DNA of 13,759 bases from a virus (lineage: Duplodnaviria > Heunggongvirae > Uroviricota > Caudoviricetes). Where the stretch lies: IMG/VR virus record IMGVR_UViG_2551306491_000003. One strand, 5' to 3'. The translations under genes and the position numbers were made by a program. The notes beneath the pieces are model-generated. The model did no database searches and was not told the DNA's origin. It saw nothing but the letters and a program-made list of their open reading frames with translations. This document shows positions 511 through 13,759 of this stretch, piece by piece (the stretch's first letter is position 1; each line of letters begins with the position of its first letter).

Positions 511-1089
511 ATGAAGGGGCTTGAGAATGCCATCCGCAATCTGAACAGCCTTGATACCCGTATGGTGCCACAGGCCAGCGCATGGGCGATAAACCGTGTG
601 GCACAGAAAGCGGGCTCGGTTGCCACCCGGCAGGTTGCCGGGAATACCGTTGCGGGAGATAACCAGGTGAAAGGGATCCCCCTGAAACTGGTTCGTCAGC
701 GTGTCCGGGTGTTTAAAGCCAGTCCGTCAGGAAAAATGACGGCCAGGATCCGCGTTAACCGGGGCAATCTGCCCGCCATTAAGCTGGGGACAGCCCGGGT
801 CAGACTGGCCCAGCGTGGTGGAAAACTGCAGTACCGTGGCAGTGTGCTGAAGGTGGGTAAATATCTTTTCCGGGATGCGTTTATTCAGCAACTGGCGAAT
901 GGTCGCTGGCATGTGATGCGGCGTATTGATGGCAAAAATCGTTACCCCATTGATGTGGTGAAAATCCCGCTGTCCGGACCGCTGACACAGGCATTTGAAG
1001 ATGCCCGCGACCGCATCATTGCTGCGGAAATGCCGAAACAGCTGGGGTATGCACTGAAACAACAACTGAGGTTATGGCTGACCCGATGA
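511..1089 (+). CDS. Z: Minor tail protein Z (lambda gpZ-like), 192 aa
   Basis: ORF 511..1089 with RBS aaagagg 5-7 nt upstream; same length as lambda Z (192 aa) and same position in the conserved gene order. Confidence 0.85.
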   Translation: MKGLENAIRNLNSLDTRMVPQASAWAINRVAQKAGSVATRQVAGNTVAGDNQVKGIPLKLVRQRVRVFKASPSGKMTARIRVNRGNLPAIKLGTARVRLAQRGGKLQYRGSVLKVGKYLFRDAFIQQLANGRWHVMRRIDGKNRYPIDVVKIPLSGPLTQAFEDARDRIIAAEMPKQLGYALKQQLRLWLTR

Positions 1090-2261: not shown

Positions 2262-2285
2262 GCCCCGGTTATCCGGGGCTTTTTT
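2262..2285 (+). terminator. Intrinsic (rho-independent) terminator-like hairpin between V and G
   Basis: gccccgg-ttat-ccggggc (7-bp GC stem, 4-nt loop) followed immediately by tttttt. Confidence 0.65.
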
Positions 2286-2301
2286 GCAGGTGGAGAACAT
2301 G

Positions 2302-2688
2302 ATGTTTCTGAAACAGGGCACGTTTAATTATGAAAAGCAGTCCGTGGTGCTCAGTGAGCTGTCCGGGCTGCAGAGAATTGAATATCTGGCGTTTGTTCAG
2401 CAGCGAACGGCAAAGTTTGATGCCGAAGAGGGAGAACTGCCGGAGGCTGAACGACAGATTGCTTTTCTGCGGATGGGGATGGATATCAATGCCTGGCTGG
2501 TTTCCCGCTCACTGTGGAATGCGGAACAGTCTCAGGATGTTGAGACGCTTTGCGCATCCGTTATTACAACATGGTCGTATGATGCCCTGGGAGCGGGGGC
2601 GGAGATGGTTCTGTCGCTGAGCGGTATGGGAGCCATTGAGAATGCCGGGGATTTGGAGCATGAGGTGCTGACGCCGGAAAAGTCCTGA
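2302..2688 (+). CDS. G: Tail assembly chaperone G (lambda gpG-like)
   Basis: Begins MFLK as lambda G does, with LSELS.LQRIE motif. RBS ggag 2292..2295. Stop TGA 2686..2688. ATG 2299 is an alternative start; the track start at 2260 is a TTG inside the terminator hairpin. Confidence 0.8.
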   Translation: MFLKQGTFNYEKQSVVLSELSGLQRIEYLAFVQQRTAKFDAEEGELPEAERQIAFLRMGMDINAWLVSRSLWNAEQSQDVETLCASVITTWSYDALGAGAEMVLSLSGMGAIENAGDLEHEVLTPEKS

Positions 2689-3026
2689 CGCGGGAAATGC
2701 AGTTTGTCATGCGGCTTGCCCGGGAGTTCCGGCGGGCAGACTGGCGGCGGATGCTGTCGGAAATGTCGGCCACTGAGCTTGGTGAGTGGGGCGATTATTT
2801 CCGGATGCAGAGCTTCAGTGATGTGTGGATGGATGCGCAGTTTGCCTCGCTGAAGGCATTGATCGTGAGAATGGTGTCCGGTAGCAGTGATGCTGCGGTG
2901 GCTGATTTCAGCCTTTTACCGGAAGAGAACGGGATACCGGAGCGAACGGACGAAGAACTGATGCATCTTGGGGAAGGTATTTCCGGAGGTGTGCGTTATG
3001 GACCAGATAGCCAACCTGGTCATTGA
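2664..3026 (+). CDS. T: T-frame segment of the tail assembly chaperone, expected to be expressed only as a G-T fusion by programmed -1 ribosomal frameshift near 2676..2682
   Basis: The -1 frame relative to G opens after a TGA at 2661..2663 and overlaps the last 25 nt of G. There is no RBS for the first ATG at 2697. Position and size match lambda T. Confidence 0.7.
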   Translation, partial: GADAGKVLTREMQFVMRLAREFRRADWRRMLSEMSATELGEWGDYFRMQSFSDVWMDAQFASLKALIVRMVSGSSDAAVADFSLLPEENGIPERTDEELMHLGEGISGGVRYGPDSQPGH

Positions 3027-6000
3027 TTTGGGGATTGATGCGGCAGAGTTTAAAAATGAAATTCCCCGTATCAAAAACCTTCTGAATGGTGCAGCCAGCG
3101 ATGCAGAACGGTCTTCTGCCCGTATGCAGCGTTTTATGGAGCGTCAGACTCAGGCCGCCCGGCAGACAATGCAGGCGGCTTCTTCGGCTGCAACAGCCGC
3201 ATCCGTCCATGCGCAGACGGTGGAGAAGAGCGCACAGGCTCATGAACGCATGGCCCGCGAGGTGGAGCAAACCCGCCAGCGTATGGAGGCACTGAGCCAG
3301 AAAATGCGCGAGGAACAGGCGCAGGCCATGGCTCTGGCGGAGGCTCAGGATAAAGCGGCTGCTGCGTTTTATCGTCAGATTGACAGTGTGAAACAGGCCG
3401 GTGCGGGGCTGCAGGAATTACAGCGTATTCAGCAACAGATCCGACAGGCCAGAAACAGTGGCGGGATTGGTCAGCAGGATTATCTGGCGCTGATTTCTGA
3501 GGTTACGGCGAAAACCCGTGTTCTTACACAGGCTGAGGAAGAGGCTACCCGACAGAAAGTGGCGTTTATCCGTCAGCTTAAAGAGCAGGCAACCCGCCAG
3601 AATCTTTCTTCTTCTGAGTTGCTTCGTGCTAAGGCTGCCCAGCTGGGGGTAAGCAGTGCTGCAGAAGTGTATATCCGCAAAATGGAGCAGGCAGGAAAAG
3701 CCACGCATTCGCTGGGTCTGAAAAGTGCAGCAGCCCGTCAGGAGATAGGCGTTCTGATAGGTGAACTGGCCCGCGGCAATTTAGGTGCGCTGAGGGGATC
3801 CGGAATAACGCTGGCTAACCGTGCCGGGTGGATAGACACACTGATGTCACCGAAAGGCATGATGCCAGGAGCGGTTATTGGCGGTATTGCCGCGGCTGTC
3901 TATGGTCTGGGTAAAGCCTGGTATGACGGTCAGAAGGAGGGGGAAGAATTTAACCGCCAGCTGTCGCTGACGGGGCATTATGCCGGAGTCACTGCCGGGC
4001 AGCTGTGGACGCTCAGTCGTGCTATTTCCGGGAATGGTATCACGCAACATGCTGCAGCCGGTGCGCTGGCTCAGGTGGTGGGGAGTGGTGCATTTCGTGG
4101 AAACGATATCGGTATGGTGGCGAGAGCTGCCGCACAGATGGAGCGATCGGTTGGCCAGTCGGTCAGCGATACCATAAATCAGTTTAAGCGGCTGAAGGAT
4201 GATCCTGTAAATGCCGCGAAGGCTCTGGACAATGAGCTGCATTTTCTTACTGCCACTCAGCTTGAGCAGATACGCGTCCTTGGGGAGCAGGGGCGGTCCA
4301 GTGATGCTGCACGGATAGCCATGTCTGCACTGGCAGAGGAAACCGGTCGGCGTACTGCGGATATTGATAATAACCTCAATGCGCTTGGCAGTACGCTGAA
4401 GTATCTGTCTGATTTGTGGAGTCGTTTCTGGGATGCGGCCATGAATATTGGTCGTGAAGACTCGCTGGATGAACAGATTGCCGCTTTACAGGAGAAAGTG
4501 TCGCGGGCGAAAAGACTCCCCTGGACGGCATCATCTTCTCAGGTTGAATACGATCAGCAGCGTCTTAACGATCTTCAGGAGAAAAAACGCCAGAAGGATT
4601 TGCAGGATGCAAAAGAGCAGGCAGAGCGGAATTATCAGGAGCAACAGAAACGCCGTAATGCTGAAAATGCTGCACTGAACCGGATGAATGAAACGGAAGC
4701 AGCACGACATCAGCGTGAAATAGCGCGTATTAATGCCATGCAGTACGCCGATCAGGCTGTCAGGGATGCGGCGATACAACGTGAAAATGAACGTTACGAG
4801 AAAGCCCTGGCATCCGGTAAGAAAAAAACACGCGAAACCCGTAATGATGAGGCCACCCGGTTATTGCTGCAGTACAGTCAGCAACAGGCACAGGTGGAAG
4901 GACAGATTGCTGCTGCCAGACAGTCAGCAGGCATTGCCACGGAAAGGATGACAGAAGCGCGTAAACAGCTTCTGGCTCTGCAGCAGCGCATCAGCGACCT
5001 GGACGGGAAAAAACTGACGGCAGATGAAAAGAGTGTGCTGGCCCGTAAAGATGAACTGATTCAGGCACTGACGCTGCTGGATGTAAAACAGCAGGAGCTT
5101 CAGAAACAGACGGCACTCAACGAGCTGAAGAAAAAAACAATTCAGCTGACCAGTCAACTGGCTGAAGAAGAGCGCGCTCAGCGTCAGCAACATGACCTGG
5201 ATATCGCCACGGTGGGTATGGGTGATCAGCAGCGACAGCGATATCAGGTACAACTGAGTCTTCGCCAGAAATACCAGCAACAGCTGGAGCAGTTGAGGCG
5301 GGATAGTGAGCAGAAAGGGACATATAACACGGATGACTACAGAAAGGCCGAGCAGGCGCTGACGGAGAGCCTGAACCGACAACTGAATGAGAATCGCCGT
5401 TACTGGCAACAGCTTGAAGTTGTACAGGGTAACTGGAAAAACGGAGTCCTGCGTGCATTTCAGGATTTTACCGTGGATGCAGATAATACGGCAGAAACAG
5501 CAGAACAGGTGTTCTCGTCAGCCTTCAGCAACATGGGAAATGGCCTGGCAACTTTTGTCACTACCGGCAAACTCAATTTCAAATCCTTCACCTCTTCTGT
5601 GCTGTCAGATATGGCGAAAATCCTGGCGCAGGCAACCATGATGAAATCGATAAAAGGGATTGGCAGTGTACTGGGATTTGATCTCAGCAGCCTTTCCCTG
5701 AATGCCAATGGGGGGATTTATCAGTCTGCTGATTTGAGTCGTTACAGTGGCACGGTGGTTAACCGTCCGACGTTTTTTGCTTTTGCAAAAGGCGCGGGTG
5801 TGATGGGGGAAGCGGGACCTGAAGCCATTCTGCCATTGCGTCGTGGTGCTGACGGTAAGCTGGGGGTTGTGGCGGATATTGGGGGTTCAGGTATGGCGAT
5901 GTTTTCCCCGCAGTACAACATCGAGATCAATAACGATGGCACGAACGGGCAGATAGGTCCGGCTGCCCTGAAGGCGGTTTATGACCTCGGGAAAAAAGCG

Positions 6001-6063
6001 GCAGCGGACTTTATGCAACAGCAGGCCCGTGATGGTGGTCGGTTAAGTGGAGCATATCGGTAA
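2998..6063 (+). CDS. H: Tail tape measure protein H (lambda gpH-like), 1021 aa
   Basis: RBS ggagg 2985..2989 then ATG 2998. N-terminus MDQIANLVIDLGIDAAEF resembles lambda H MAEPVGDLVVDLSLDAARF; C-terminus contains INNDGTNGQIGPAALKAVYD and DGG as in lambda H. Long Q/E/R/K/A-rich central coiled-coil region. The track ORF start 2968 is TTG. Confidence 0.9.
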   Translation: MDQIANLVIDLGIDAAEFKNEIPRIKNLLNGAASDAERSSARMQRFMERQTQAARQTMQAASSAATAASVHAQTVEKSAQAHERMAREVEQTRQRMEALSQKMREEQAQAMALAEAQDKAAAAFYRQIDSVKQAGAGLQELQRIQQQIRQARNSGGIGQQDYLALISEVTAKTRVLTQAEEEATRQKVAFIRQLKEQATRQNLSSSELLRAKAAQLGVSSAAEVYIRKMEQAGKATHSLGLKSAAARQEIGVLIGELARGNLGALRGSGITLANRAGWIDTLMSPKGMMPGAVIGGIAAAVYGLGKAWYDGQKEGEEFNRQLSLTGHYAGVTAGQLWTLSRAISGNGITQHAAAGALAQVVGSGAFRGNDIGMVARAAAQMERSVGQSVSDTINQFKRLKDDPVNAAKALDNELHFLTATQLEQIRVLGEQGRSSDAARIAMSALAEETGRRTADIDNNLNALGSTLKYLSDLWSRFWDAAMNIGREDSLDEQIAALQEKVSRAKRLPWTASSSQVEYDQQRLNDLQEKKRQKDLQDAKEQAERNYQEQQKRRNAENAALNRMNETEAARHQREIARINAMQYADQAVRDAAIQRENERYEKALASGKKKTRETRNDEATRLLLQYSQQQAQVEGQIAAARQSAGIATERMTEARKQLLALQQRISDLDGKKLTADEKSVLARKDELIQALTLLDVKQQELQKQTALNELKKKTIQLTSQLAEEERAQRQQHDLDIATVGMGDQQRQRYQVQLSLRQKYQQQLEQLRRDSEQKGTYNTDDYRKAEQALTESLNRQLNENRRYWQQLEVVQGNWKNGVLRAFQDFTVDADNTAETAEQVFSSAFSNMGNGLATFVTTGKLNFKSFTSSVLSDMAKILAQATMMKSIKGIGSVLGFDLSSLSLNANGGIYQSADLSRYSGTVVNRPTFFAFAKGAGVMGEAGPEAILPLRRGADGKLGVVADIGGSGMAMFSPQYNIEINNDGTNGQIGPAALKAVYDLGKKAAADFMQQQARDGGRLSGAYR

Positions 6064-8454: not shown

Positions 8455-11400
8455 ATGGGTAAAGGAAGCAGTAAGGGGCATACCCCGCGCGAAGCGAAGG
8501 ACAACCTGAAGTCCACGCAGCTGCTGAGTGTGATCGATGCCATCAGCGAAGGACCGATTGAAGGTCCGGTGGATGGATTAAAAAGCGTGCTGCTGAACAG
8601 TACGCCGGTGCTGGACAGTGAAGGTAATACCAACATCTCCGGTGTCACGGTGGTGTTCCGGGCCGGTGAGCAGGAGCAGACACCGCCGGAGGGATTTGAA
8701 TCCTCCGGTTCTGAGACGGTGCTGGGTACGGAAGTGAAATACGACACGCCGATCACCCGCACCATCACGTCGGCAAACATCGATCGTCTGCGCTTTACTT
8801 TCGGTGTGCAGGCACTGCGGGAAACCACCTCAAAGGGGGACCGGAATCCGTCGGAAGTCCGCCTGCTGGTTCAGATACAGCGTAATGGTGGCTGGGTGAC
8901 GGAAAAAGACATCACCATTAAGGGCAAAACCACGTCGCAGTATCTGGCCTCGGTGGTGGTGGATAACCTGCCGCCGCGCCCGTTTAATATCCGGATGCGC
9001 AGGATGACGCCGGACAGCACCACAGACCAGCTGCAGAACAAAACGCTCTGGTCGTCATACACCGAAATCATCGATGTGAAACAGTGCTACCCGAACACGG
9101 CACTGGTTGGCGTGCAGGTGGACTCGGAGCAGTTTGGCAGTCAGCAGGTGAGCCGTAATTATCATCTTCGCGGGCGCATTCTGCAGGTGCCGTCAAACTA
9201 TGATCCGGAAAAACGCACTTACAGCGGCATCTGGGACGGAACGTTAAAACCGGCATACAGCAACAACATGGCCTGGTGTCTGTGGGATATGCTGACCCAC
9301 CCGCGCTACGGCATGGGGAAACGTCTTGGTGCGGCGGATGTGGATAAATGGGCGCTGTATGTCATCGGCCAGTACTGCGACCAGTCAGTACCGGACGGCT
9401 TTGGCGGCACGGAGCCGCGCATCACCTGTAATGCGTACCTGACCACGCAGCGCAAGGCGTGGGATGTGCTCAGTGATTTCTGCTCGGCGATGCGCTGTAT
9501 GCCGGTATGGAACGGGCAGACGCTGACGTTCGTGCAGGACCGGCCGTCGGATAAGGTGTGGACCTATAACCGCAGTAATGTGGTGATGCCGGATGATGGC
9601 GCGCCGTTCCGCTACAGCTTTAGCGCCCTGAAAGACCGCCATAATGCCGTTGAGGTGAACTGGACTGACCCGGACAACGGCTGGGAGACGGCGACAGAGC
9701 TTGTGGAGGACACGCAGGCCATTGCCCGTTACGGTCGTAACGTCACGAAGATGGATGCCTTTGGCTGTACCAGTCGGGGGCAGGCACACCGTGCCGGGCT
9801 GTGGCTGATTAAAACGGAACTGCTGGAAACGCAGACCGTGGACTTCAGCGTGGGCGCAGAAGGGCTTCGCCATGTACCGGGCGATGTCATTGAAATCTGT
9901 GATGATGACTATGCGGGGATCAGCATCGGTGGGCGTGTGCTGGCGGTGAACAGCCAGACCCGGACGCTGACGCTCGACCGTGAAATCACGCTGCCATCCT
10001 CCGGCACCACGCTGATAAGCCTGGTTGACGGAAGTGGCAATCCGGTCAGCGTGGAGGTTCAGTCCGTCACCGACGGCGTGAAGGTAAAAGTGAGCCGGGT
10101 TCCTGACGGTGTTGCTGAATACAGCGTGTGGGGGCTGAAGCTGCCGACGCTGCGCCAGCGCCTGTTCCGCTGCGTGAGTATCCGTGAGAACGACGACGGC
10201 ACGTATGCCATCACTGCCGTGCAGCATGTGCCGGAGAAAGAGGGCATCGTGGATAACGGGGCGCACTTTGACGGTGACCAGAGCAGCACGGTGAATGGTG
10301 TCACGCCGCCAGCGGTGCAGCACCTGACCGCCGAAGTCTCCGCAGACAGCGGGGAATATCAGGTGCTGGCGCGATGGGACACGCCGAAGGTGGTGAAGGG
10401 TGTGAGCTTCCTGCTTCGCCTGACCGTGGCAGCGGATGACGGCAGTGAGCGGCTGGTCAGCACGGCCCGGACGACGGAAACCACATACCGCTTCACGCAG
10501 CTGGCGCTGGGGAACTACAGGCTGACAGTCCGGGCGGTAAATGCGTGGGGACAGCAGGGCGATCCGGCGTCGGTATCGTTCCGGATTGCCGCACCGGCAG
10601 CGCCGTCACAGATTGAGCTGACACCGGGCTATTTTCAGATAACCGCCACGCCGCATCTTGCGGTTTATGATCCGACGGTACAGTTTGAGTTCTGGTTCTC
10701 GGAAACGCGGATTGCGGATATCAGGCAGGTTGAAACCAGCGCGCGTTATCTTGGTACGGCGCTGTACTGGATAGCCGCCAGTATCAATATCAAACCGGGC
10801 CATGATTATTACTTTTATATCCGCAGTGTGAACACCGTTGGCAAATCGGCATTCGTGGAGGCCGTCGGTCGGGCGAGCGATGATGCGGAAGGTTATCTGG
10901 ATTTTTTCAAAGGCAAGATAACCGAATCTCATCTCGGCAAGGAGCTGCTGGAAAAAGTCGATCTGACGGAGGATAACGCCAGCAGACTGGATGAGTTTTC
11001 GAAAGAGTGGAAGGACGCTAACGATAAATGGAATGCCATGTGGGGCGTCAAAATTGAGCAGACCAAAGACGGCAAACATTATGTCGCGGGTATTGGCCTC
11101 AGCATGGAGGACACGGAGGAAGGCAAGCTGAGCCAGTTTCTGGTTGCCGCCAATCGTATCGCGTTTATTGACCCGGCAAACGGGAATGAAACGCCGATGT
11201 TTGTGGCGCAGGGCAACCAGATATTCATGAACGACGTGTTCCTGAAGCGCCTGACGGCCCCCACCATTACCAGCGGTGGAAATCCACCGGTATTTTCCCT
11301 GACATCAGACGGAAAGCTGACCGCTAAAAATGCGGATATCAGTGGCAGTGTGAATGCGAACTCCGGGACGCTCAACAACGTCACGGTAAATGAAAACTGT

Positions 11401-11938: not shown

Positions 11939-12538
11939 ATGCGTAAAGTTTGTGCAGCAATTTTGTCCGCAGCCATTTGTCTGGCCGTATCCGGTGTGCC
12001 TGCATGGGCGTCTGAGCATCAGTCCACGCTGAGCGCAGGATATCTTCATGCCAGTACGGACGCTCCCGGCAGCGATGATCTGAACGGGATTAACGTGAAA
12101 TACCGTTATGAGTTTACGGACACACTGGGGCTGATTACGTCCTTCAGTTATGCCAACGCCGAAGATGAGCAAAAAACGCATTACAGCGATACCCGCTGGC
12201 ATGAGGATTACGTGCGTAACCGCTGGTTCAGCGTGATGGCAGGGCCGTCTGTGCGTGTGAATGAATGGTTCAGTGCGTATGCGATGGCGGGTGTGGCTTA
12301 CAGCCGTGTGTCGACTTTTTCCGGGGATTATTTCCGCGTAACTGACAACAAGAGGAAAACGCACGACGTGCTGACCGGAAGTGATGACGCTCGCTACAGC
12401 AACACATCTCTGGCGTGGGGGGCTGGCGTGCAGTTTAACCCGACCGAATCAGTGGCCGTTGATGTCGCTTATGAAGGCTCCGGCAGCGGTGACTGGCGCA
12501 CTGACGGTTTCATCGTGGGTGTCGGTTATAAATTTTGA
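11939..12538 (+). CDS. lom: Outer membrane beta-barrel protein Lom (Ail/Lom/PagC family), 199 aa with signal peptide
   Basis: RBS gggagg 11928..11933. N-terminal signal peptide MRKVCAAILSAAICLAVSGVPAWA. Aromatic-rich beta-strand pattern ending in terminal Phe (GVGYKF), typical of outer-membrane barrels. Sits between J and stf as lom does in lambda. Confidence 0.85.
   Translation: MRKVCAAILSAAICLAVSGVPAWASEHQSTLSAGYLHASTDAPGSDDLNGINVKYRYEFTDTLGLITSFSYANAEDEQKTHYSDTRWHEDYVRNRWFSVMAGPSVRVNEWFSAYAMAGVAYSRVSTFSGDYFRVTDNKRKTHDVLTGSDDARYSNTSLAWGAGVQFNPTESVAVDVAYEGSGSGDWRTDGFIVGVGYKF

Positions 12539-12597: not shown

Positions 12598-13759
<1,162 letters not shown>

What the first reader, a model, noticed from the sequence alone, without database searches (positions are those of the whole stretch)
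2664..2688. G-T programmed -1 frameshift appears to use a non-canonical heptamer GGAAAAG rather than lambda's GGGAAAG
The T frame is open only from 2664 and G stops at 2688, so the shift must happen within these 25 nt. The only slippery-looking element is G GAA AAG at 2676..2682 (G frame: CCG GAA AAG). After a -1 slip the A-site lysine tRNA re-pairs perfectly on AAA, but the P-site codon becomes GGA, which a glutamate tRNA would pair with only via a mismatch. This predicts a lower or differently tuned G:GT ratio, which is known to matter for lambda tail assembly.
Basis: partly seen in the sequence, partly recalled or inferred. Interest (0 to 1): 0.55.

Follow-up and report, generated by a model that had tools for sequence, protein, structure and literature searches.

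The report
Ordinary phage G-T frameshift site GGAAAAG
The GGAAAAG at 2676-2682 is the slip site where ribosomes shift back one base to fuse two phage tail-assembly proteins, and it is ordinary: it is the commonest version of this site among lambda-like phages sampled here and was already annotated in phage N15.

Summary
G (2299-2688) and the -1 frame T (open 2664-3026) overlap by 25 nt. The only slip-prone element in that overlap is G_GAA_AAG at 2676-2682.

- **Already annotated.** The GenBank record of phage N15 marks the same in-frame heptamer, at the homologous position of the homologous genes, as "slippery sequence for -1 translational frameshift".
- **Commonest form.** Among 63 distinct G-T junctions from phages and enterobacterial prophages, 48 use GGAAAAG. 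Lambda's GGGAAAG accounts for 10, AAAAAAG for 2, and variants ending in AAAA plus TAG for 3.
- **Selected at the nucleotide level.** The first heptamer base always equals the second, although it is the third base of six different codons. This favours two-tRNA slippage.
- **Not a sequencing error.** The allele matches 1848 of 5426 complete E. coli genomes.
- **No independent T start.** ATG 2697 aligns with Leu in every relative examined.
- **No structural stimulator.** No downstream RNA structure was found. An upstream GAGGUG is a possible stimulator but is not conserved.

The predicted lower G:GT ratio is plausible but untested. Already known; low interest.

The parts
2299..2688 (+). Gene G, the tail assembly chaperone (129 aa), the zero-frame product
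   Evidence: Translation. Pfam PF06894 Phage_TAC_2, E 1.8e-39. Annotated gpG-like in Ayreon, mEp460, cdtI and RefSeq E. coli.
2676..2682 (+). Slip site G_GAA_AAG (zero frame Glu-Lys; -1 frame GGA_AAA)
   Evidence: Same heptamer and phase at the homologous position in N15, where it is annotated as the slippery sequence, and in Gifsy-2, HK225, mEp213 and many prophages. Column conservation.
2664..3026 (+). The -1 frame (T) open reading frame. The part translated after the shift starts at 2682 (codon GTC), so gpGT = join(2299..2682, 2682..3026), 242 aa
   Evidence: Pfam PF06223 Phage_tail_T, E 5.1e-15. The fusion aligns end to end with lambda, N15 and Gifsy-2 GT proteins, with the slip-site Lys invariant.
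2686..2688 (+). TGA stop of G, one codon after the heptamer
2661..2663 (+). TGA in the -1 frame that closes the T frame upstream and bounds the shift window
2662..2667 (+). GAGGTG, a Shine-Dalgarno-like hexamer. Its GAGG core ends 10 nt before the heptamer and the hexamer ends 8 nt before. Candidate stimulator only
   Evidence: predicted duplex with the 16S 3' end is -9.3 kcal/mol against -7.4 for the dnaX element in the same calculation. It is not conserved across the family and is polymorphic within this allele group (GAGGTG in 55 loci, GAGGCG in 36).
2697..2699 (+). ATG that gene callers use as the start of T. It is not a conserved start
   Evidence: It aligns with Leu in lambda, Gifsy-2, mEp213, N15, Stx2d and PhiR5_1, and with CTG in the nearest outgroup L102. 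The only purine-rich stretch upstream, GGGAA, abuts the ATG. PGAP and GenBank records start T here.

Best explanation
Positions 2676-2682 are the programmed -1 ribosomal frameshift site of the lambda-type tail assembly chaperone genes G and T. Most ribosomes read CCG GAA AAG TCC TGA and release gpG (129 aa). A small fraction slip back one base with tRNA-Glu in the P site and tRNA-Lys in the A site. tRNA-Lys moves from AAG to AAA, a favourable change. tRNA-Glu (anticodon UUC) moves from GAA to GGA, keeping the first and third pairs and putting a G.U in the middle. Translation then continues with GTC CTG ACG ... to 3026 and yields the 242-aa gpGT fusion. By analogy with lambda, the fusion links the tape measure protein to the tail tube protein. 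No downstream RNA structure is involved. In this allele an upstream GAGGUG may add some stimulation.

Shown here: the frames, the site, its conservation, and nucleotide-level selection on heptamer base 1. Inferred: the two-tRNA mechanism, the low efficiency and the role of gpGT.
For: - **Frames and overlap:**
- **Gene identity and order:** G is PF06894 and T is PF06223. The tail tube gene lies upstream and the tape measure gene downstream.
- **Prior annotation:** N15 record AF064539 marks 10027-10033, which reads GGAAAAG in the phase G_GAA_AAG, as 'slippery sequence for -1 translational frameshift'. Gifsy-2, at about 54% amino-acid identity, has the same heptamer, and its T is annotated as part of a frameshift hybrid.
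- **Survey of 63 distinct junctions:** GGAAAAG 48, GGGAAAG 10, AAAAAAG 2, and 3 AAAA+TAG variants. In Providencia heimbachae the overlap shrinks to the 16 nt ATCACTGGAAAAGTAG.
- **Conservation in 35 non-redundant junctions:** heptamer bases 4-6 are invariant A. Base 1, a third codon position, carries 1.81 bits, against 0.03-0.75 bits at the other upstream third positions.
- **Base 1 tracks base 2:** it is G before GAA or GGA and A before AAA, across CCG, GCG, CTG, TTG, GTG, ACG and TCA. This is what P-site re-pairing predicts.
- **Fusion alignment:** the fused protein aligns without a gap through the junction, and the Lys is invariant.
- **Not an error:** the allele matches 1848 of 5426 complete E. 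coli genomes.
- **Literature:** lambda makes gpG and gpGT at about 30:1 by -1 frameshifting (PMC5009743). G_GA-type first halves are a recognised intermediate class.
Against: - No protein or reporter data exist for this phage group, and the public records annotate G and T as separate genes.
- In a reconstituted E. coli system, AUG_GAA_AAG gave mainly zero-frame product and was used as the 'less slippery' comparison to G_GGA_AAG.
- A_AAG alone is at background (about 0.15%) without a stimulator, and I found no conserved stimulator. The efficiency may therefore be well below lambda's.
- The conservation of base 1 could partly reflect the preference of enteric bacteria for NNG codons.
Confidence: 0.8

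Rival explanations
1. Single-tRNA slippage. Only tRNA-Lys shifts on A_AAG, either in the A site (the NNA_AAG hexanucleotide mode) or in the P site before UCC is decoded. tRNA-Glu does not re-pair on GGA. The protein product is identical to that of two-tRNA slippage.
For: - The A_AAG core is the only strictly invariant part of the site.
- NNA_AAG single-slippage sites such as CGA_AAG are known (review).
- Relatives with G_GCA_AAA_TAG (L103, L105) have very poor P-site re-pairing potential and a stop codon in the next position, which suits slippage by tRNA-Lys alone.
Against: - Heptamer base 1 is G in 34 of 35 non-redundant junctions and is A exactly where base 2 is A, over six codons and five amino acids. 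Single-tRNA slippage does not require this base.
- A_AAG alone is at background without a strong pseudoknot, and no such structure is present.
- tRNA-Glu reads only GAA and GAG, so it falls in the restricted-wobble class, which the review says gives lower frameshifting levels on NNA_AAG (assigning tRNA-Glu to that class is my own inference).
Confidence: 0.15
2. There is no frameshift. T is made on its own from ATG 2697, as the database annotations imply.
For: - An in-frame ATG exists at 2697.
- mEp460, cdtI and RefSeq PGAP records annotate a 109-aa T protein from it.
Against: - The Met aligns with Leu in all six other aligned relatives and with CTG in the closest outgroup.
- Gifsy-2 has no ATG there.
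- Similarity in the T frame continues upstream of the ATG to the slip-site Lys.
- The only Shine-Dalgarno-like bases (GGGAA) abut the ATG.
- The slip heptamer would not be conserved if it were unused.
- From my own recollection of Levin et al. 1993, which I could not read here: in lambda, T is made only as part of gpGT.
Confidence: 0.04
3. The heptamer is a sequencing or assembly error for GGGAAAG, or the locus is a decaying pseudogene.
For: None found.
Against: - The 25-nt overlap is identical, or differs by a single base outside the heptamer, in independent phage isolates, IMG/VR contigs and bacterial genomes.
- The allele matches 1848 complete E. coli genomes, 1102 of them at 99% identity or more.
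- Plaque-forming phages such as Ayreon, mEp460 and cdtI carry it.
Confidence: 0.01

Closest known systems
Phage N15 genes 14/15 (GenBank AF064539), slippery sequence annotated at 10027-10033
   Same: Homologous G and T genes at about 36% amino-acid identity. The heptamer GGAAAAG is identical, in the same phase G_GAA_AAG, and at the same alignment column.
   Different: In N15, G continues five codons past the heptamer; here it continues one codon. N15 has no Shine-Dalgarno-like element upstream.
Phage lambda G/T -1 frameshift at G_GGA_AAG
   Same: Same gene pair, same position between the tail tube and tape measure genes, same A_AAG second half, and no predicted downstream structure. The product ratio of about 30:1 is needed for tail assembly.
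   Different: The third base of the heptamer is A instead of G. The P-site tRNA is therefore tRNA-Glu, with a G.U at the middle position after the slip, rather than tRNA-Gly, where the G.U falls at the wobble position. G and GT are shorter here (129 and 242 aa against 140 and 279).
Gifsy-2 prophage STM1039 / STM1041.1n (Salmonella)
   Same: The closest diverged relative, at about 54% identity. It shares the junction ...ACGCCGGAAAAGTCCTGA, including the stop one codon after the heptamer and GAGG 10 nt upstream. T is annotated as part of a frameshift hybrid protein.
   Different: Different host. There is no ATG at the position equivalent to 2697.
E. coli dnaX A_AAA_AAG frameshift
   Same: The same A_AAG tRNA-Lys slip. 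The window has a Shine-Dalgarno-like element whose GAGG core ends 10 nt upstream, which I recall (not checked here) is the spacing of the dnaX element.
   Different: dnaX needs a downstream stem-loop and reaches about 80% in vitro and, by the cited reports, in vivo. No structure is predicted here, and the expected level is a few per cent or less.
NNA_AAG hexanucleotide sites (IS1222 G_CGA_AAG, Bacillus cdd A_CGA_AAG)
   Same: A non-repetitive first codon ending in A, followed by AAG.
   Different: Here the base before the first codon matches that codon's first base and is conserved. The site is therefore intermediate between a hexamer and a full heptamer.

Membership tests
Lambda-type tail assembly chaperone G/GT programmed -1 frameshift | Two overlapping ORFs lying between the major tail (tube) gene and the tape measure gene | tested here: met
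   V-like ORF ends at 2241 (PF16461), G is 2299-2688, T frame is 2664-3026, and H runs from 2998 to 6063.
Lambda-type tail assembly chaperone G/GT programmed -1 frameshift | The upstream ORF is a gpG homologue | tested here: met
   PF06894, E 1.8e-39, 134.9 bits against a cut-off of 27.
Lambda-type tail assembly chaperone G/GT programmed -1 frameshift | The downstream ORF is in the -1 frame, is a gpT homologue, and has no conserved start of its own | tested here: met
   PF06223, E 5.1e-15. The -1 relation is shown. ATG 2697 aligns with Leu in the relatives.
Lambda-type tail assembly chaperone G/GT programmed -1 frameshift | A slip-prone sequence in the overlap at a conserved position | tested here: met
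   G_GAA_AAG at 2676-2682. The same alignment column holds the heptamer in all 63 distinct junctions.
Lambda-type tail assembly chaperone G/GT programmed -1 frameshift | A GT fusion protein is made at a low fixed ratio to G and is required for tail assembly | not testable with these tools
   Needs a reporter assay, western blot or mass spectrometry. No published data for this phage group turned up.
Canonical X_XXY_YYZ slippery heptamer | The first three bases are identical (XXX) | tested here: not met
   The bases are G, G, A. The first pair of the -1 codon is kept, the second becomes G.U, and the third is kept.
Canonical X_XXY_YYZ slippery heptamer | Bases 4-6 are identical (YYY), with a Z that favours slippage in E. 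coli (A_AAG) | tested here: met
   AAA followed by G. A_AAG is the most shift-prone tetramer in E. coli.
dnaX-type stimulated -1 frameshift | A downstream stem-loop or pseudoknot | tested here: not met
   z-scores of -0.84 and +1.09 for 2683-2790 and 2683-2735. There is no consensus structure within 60 nt of the heptamer and only a 4-bp hairpin beyond that (-1.29 kcal/mol); mean z is +0.17 over 35 junctions. Pseudoknots were not searched.
dnaX-type stimulated -1 frameshift | A Shine-Dalgarno-like element about 6-17 nt upstream | tested here: inconclusive
   GAGGUG at 2662-2667 has its GAGG core ending 10 nt before the heptamer. A similar element is present in about 9 of 35 non-redundant junctions and absent from N15 and lambda. 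Such motifs are no denser here than in the acidic linker 24-35 nt upstream.
NNA_AAG hexanucleotide (single tRNA-Lys slippage) | Slippage does not depend on the base 5' of the first codon | tested here: not met
   That base is G in 34 of 35 junctions and co-varies with heptamer base 2. This is comparative evidence only.

The most novel reading that the evidence does not exclude
G_GAA_AAG served as a 'less slippery' comparison in ribosome biophysics (Peng et al. 2019), yet it is the majority natural shift site of enterobacterial G-T genes in this sample. Its use in vivo might depend on P-site tolerance of a second-position G.U. In this allele group it might also depend on an internal Shine-Dalgarno-like element with its GAGG core ending 10 nt upstream. 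That would give a G:GT ratio set by a mechanism not yet measured and possibly different from lambda's. The GAGGTG/GAGGCG polymorphism would then be a natural tuning knob.
Probability: 0.25. Interest if true: 0.4.

Novelty: already known. Interest (0 to 1): 0.15.

Why it matters
Practically, the finding exposes an annotation gap. In 1848 complete E. coli genomes and in several phage records, G and T are annotated as separate genes, T starts at a non-conserved ATG, and no ribosomal slippage is marked. The real product is very probably a 242-aa fusion.

Scientifically the gain is small. The survey shows that lambda's G_GGA_AAG is the minority form and G_GAA_AAG the usual one. It also shows that heptamer base 1 is under nucleotide-level selection. 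That is comparative support for P-site re-pairing with a middle-position G.U. Nothing here changes the understanding of tail assembly or frameshifting.

Tried and rejected
- **Downstream stimulatory structure.** Folding 2683-2790 and 2683-2735 gave nothing better than shuffled sequence. RNAalifold on 35 non-redundant junctions gave no consensus structure within 60 nt of the heptamer, and the mean z was +0.17. A CGCCRG...CTGGCG stem appears in some N15-like members (z about -1.1 to -1.4) but not in the window or lambda. Rejected as a family feature.
- **Upstream Shine-Dalgarno enrichment.** GAGG with its 3' end exactly 10 nt upstream recurs in 8 of 35 junctions, but such motifs are equally dense 24-35 nt upstream in the acidic linker. 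Kept only as a candidate for this allele.
- **Chance occurrence of the bare heptamer.** Not significant on its own.
- **Literature.**
  - Xu, Hendrix and Duda 2004 and Licznar et al. 2003 are not held in the library. What I say of them rests on the Atkins 2016 review or is marked as my own recollection.
  - Full-text searches for GGAAAAG with 'phage' and 'slippery' found only Peng et al. 2019. I found no measured in vivo efficiency for G_GAA_AAG in a phage context.
  - Bock et al. 2019 measured first-position but not second-position mismatches.
- **Transcriptional slippage.** Rejected from general knowledge: a run of four A is far shorter than the runs known to cause it.
- **Other shift sites in the 25-nt overlap.** None allows re-pairing (enumeration on the sequence).

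Full report
**What the window is.** The 771 bases around the finding are 97.5-99.9% identical to 17 lambdoid E. coli phage records, including Ayreon, phi458, cdtI, mEp460 and Tritos. They are 100% identical to prophages in many E. coli chromosomes. In all, 1848 of 5426 complete E. coli genomes hold a match, 1102 records at 99% identity or more. The gene order is lambda's: tail tube gene V (PF16461), G, T, tape measure H, then M, L, K, I, J and lom.

**Check of the observation.**
- The G frame reads ATG 2299 ... CCG GAA AAG TCC TGA, with the stop at 2686-2688 (129 aa).
- The -1 frame has a TGA at 2661-2663 and is open from 2664 to 3026.
- The overlap is the 25 nt GGTGCTGACGCCGGAAAAGTCCTGA, and GGAAAAG lies at 2676-2682 in the phase G_GAA_AAG.
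- Going through the codon pairs of the overlap on the sequence, no other position lets either tRNA re-pair in the -1 frame.
- The bare heptamer is not statistically special: 3 copies in the window against 2.08 expected. Its weight comes from phase, position and conservation.

**What it is.**
- G matches Pfam PF06894 (lambda tail assembly chaperone G, E 1.8e-39). The -1 frame product matches PF06223 (minor tail protein T, E 5.1e-15).
- Fusing the frames at the heptamer gives a 242-aa protein. It aligns end to end with the GT fusions of lambda, Gifsy-2, mEp213, N15, an Stx2d phage and PhiR5_1. The slip-site Lys is invariant and there is no gap at the junction.
- The Met encoded by ATG 2697, which mEp460, cdtI and RefSeq use as the start of T, aligns with Leu in all six other sequences. 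It aligns with CTG in the closest outgroup, a Citrobacter prophage (L102).
- That ATG has no usable Shine-Dalgarno spacing. T is therefore not a free-standing gene.

**The heptamer is already known.**
- The N15 GenBank record (AF064539) carries a misc_feature 'slippery sequence for -1 translational frameshift' at 10027-10033. Those seven bases are GGAAAAG, in the phase G_GAA_AAG, at the column homologous to 2676-2682.
- Gifsy-2, about 54% identical in protein, shares the junction ACGCCGGAAAAGTCCTGA. Its T is annotated as part of a frameshift hybrid.
- HK225, mEp213 and Eeyore have the same heptamer.

**How common it is.** I collected loci from IMG/VR and from a one-genome-per-species bacterial collection and extracted the junction from each.

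| Heptamer | Distinct junctions (of 63) | Non-redundant junctions (of 35) |
|---|---|---|
| G_GAA_AAG | 48 | 26 |
| G_GGA_AAG | 10 | 5 |
| A_AAA_AAG | 2 | 1 |
| G_GCA_AAA + TAG | 2 | 2 |
| G_GGA_AAA + TAG | 1 | 1 |

- The non-redundant set collapses near-identical junctions.
- G_GAA_AAG occurs in Escherichia, Salmonella, Citrobacter, Kosakonia, Kluyvera, Enterobacter, Trabulsiella, Atlantibacter, Klebsiella, Providencia, Sodalis and others.
- G_GGA_AAG occurs in lambda and relatives, Serratia, Edwardsiella and Symbiopectobacterium. A_AAA_AAG occurs in Stx phages.
- Lambda's heptamer is the minority form.
- In Providencia heimbachae the overlap is only 16 nt, ATCACTGGAAAAGTAG, which leaves no alternative site.

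**Evidence on mechanism.**
- In the 35 non-redundant junctions, heptamer bases 4-6 are invariant A and base 7 is G in 32. The variable position is base 3 (A 27, G 6, C 2).
- Base 1 is the third position of the preceding codon. That codon is CCG, GCG, CTG, TTG, GTG or ACG (five amino acids), yet the base is G in 34 of 35. It is A only where the heptamer is A_AAA_AAG, after TCA.
- Base 1 carries 1.81 bits of information, against 0.03-0.75 bits at the other upstream third positions.
- Base 1 therefore always equals base 2. That is what re-pairing of the P-site tRNA in the -1 frame needs, and what slippage by tRNA-Lys alone would not need.
- After the slip, tRNA-Glu (anticodon UUC, from general knowledge) faces GGA: G:C, G.U, A:U. 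Peng et al. 2019 describe the same sequence as carrying a second-position mismatch. They used it as the 'less slippery' comparison to G_GGA_AAG, and it gave mainly zero-frame product in vitro.
- Sharma et al. 2014 found A_AAG alone at background (about 0.15%) without a stimulator and at 5.6% with the IS3 pseudoknot.
- Bock et al. 2019 put the cost of an A.U to G.U change in the P site at about 5 kJ/mol, for the first position.
- The Atkins 2016 review lists sites whose first half is G_GA, G_GU and similar as recognised intermediates between hexamer and heptamer sites. The PRFect paper uses a 'twofour' motif class and discusses tRNA-Glu re-pairing on GGA through G:U.
The inference of a lower efficiency than lambda's is reasonable, but I found no measurement in a phage context.

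**Stimulators.**
- Sequence downstream of the heptamer folds no better than shuffled controls (z -0.84 and +1.09).
- The family has no consensus structure within 60 nt of the heptamer, and the mean z is +0.17.
- Upstream, the window has GAGGTG at 2662-2667. The GAGG core ends 10 nt before the heptamer, which I recall (not checked here) is the spacing of the dnaX element. The predicted duplex with the 16S 3' end is -9.3 kcal/mol, against -7.4 for dnaX, -0.9 for N15 and -2.1 for lambda in the same crude calculation.
- GAGG or GGAG ending exactly 10 nt upstream occurs in 8 of 35 junctions, and one more ends at 11 nt. It derives from a conserved Glu codon.
- Such motifs are just as frequent 24-35 nt upstream in the acidic linker. 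The element is also polymorphic within the window's own allele group: GAGGTG in 55 loci and GAGGCG in 36.
- I keep it as a candidate only.

**Verdict.**
- The feature is real and the site assignment is right. It is an ordinary member of the lambda-type G/GT frameshift family, using the family's commonest heptamer, which was annotated in N15 long ago.
The sequence is not an error, and there is no support for independent initiation of T.
- Two things remain open: the actual efficiency, and whether one or two tRNAs slip. The two modes give the same protein.
- The useful by-product is an annotation correction: gpGT = join(2299..2682, 2682..3026), 242 aa. Public records do not carry it.

Noticed in passing
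L103 (Kluyvera genomosp. 1) and L105 (Ewingella americana): junction ...CTGGCAAAATAG. L136 (Providencia rustigianii)...ATGGGAAAATAG. L117 and L153 (Providencia)...CTGGAAAAGTAG: In some relatives the G stop codon TAG follows the heptamer directly. Three of them end in AAA rather than AAG. G_GCA_AAA_TAG leaves almost no P-site re-pairing potential, so these may work by slippage of tRNA-Lys alone, helped by slow termination at the adjacent stop. That would be a different flavour of the same recoding event.
   Followed up: partly
window 2262-2285: A GC-rich hairpin, GCCCCGGTTATCCGGGGC, followed by TTTTTT lies between the tail tube gene V and G. It is annotated as a terminator in Ayreon and mEp460, and a similar stem-loop is annotated after the V homologues of N15 and HK225. 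It could lower transcription of G, T and H relative to V.
   Followed up: partly
window 2697-3026, and RefSeq or GenBank records such as NZ_CP033605.1 917168-917497: PGAP and most phage submitters annotate T as a separate 109-aa CDS from a non-conserved ATG, with no ribosomal slippage. Ayreon even starts it further downstream. This mis-annotation probably affects most of the 1848 matching complete E. coli genomes; I checked one RefSeq record in detail, and the eight listed hits carry the same separate gpG and T product names.
   Followed up: yes
Genome-contig loci L138-L150 (for example Neobacillus, Kitasatospora, Oceanobacillus, Leeuwenhoekiella, Enterococcus; short contigs, several with coverage near 1 in the contig name): Sixteen loci share an identical lambda-type G-T junction protein, and many of them come from genome assemblies of unrelated bacteria. 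Most likely this is lambda DNA contamination of sequencing libraries rather than real prophages.
   Followed up: no
window 2998-3026: The tape measure gene H starts at ATG 2998, inside the last 29 nt of the T frame. So GT and H overlap, as in lambda and N15.
   Followed up: no
window 11939-12538: This ORF is a full-length Ail/Lom outer membrane protein (PF06316, E 1.8e-131) downstream of J, as in lambda. Two reverse-strand ORFs at 12779-13555 and 13291-13638 have no Pfam match.
   Followed up: no
window 3694-3700 (+) and 865-871 (-): There are two further copies of GGAAAAG. The copy in H lies in the phase GGA_AAA_G, so it is not a slip site in that frame (phase worked out from the H start at 2998).
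   Followed up: yes
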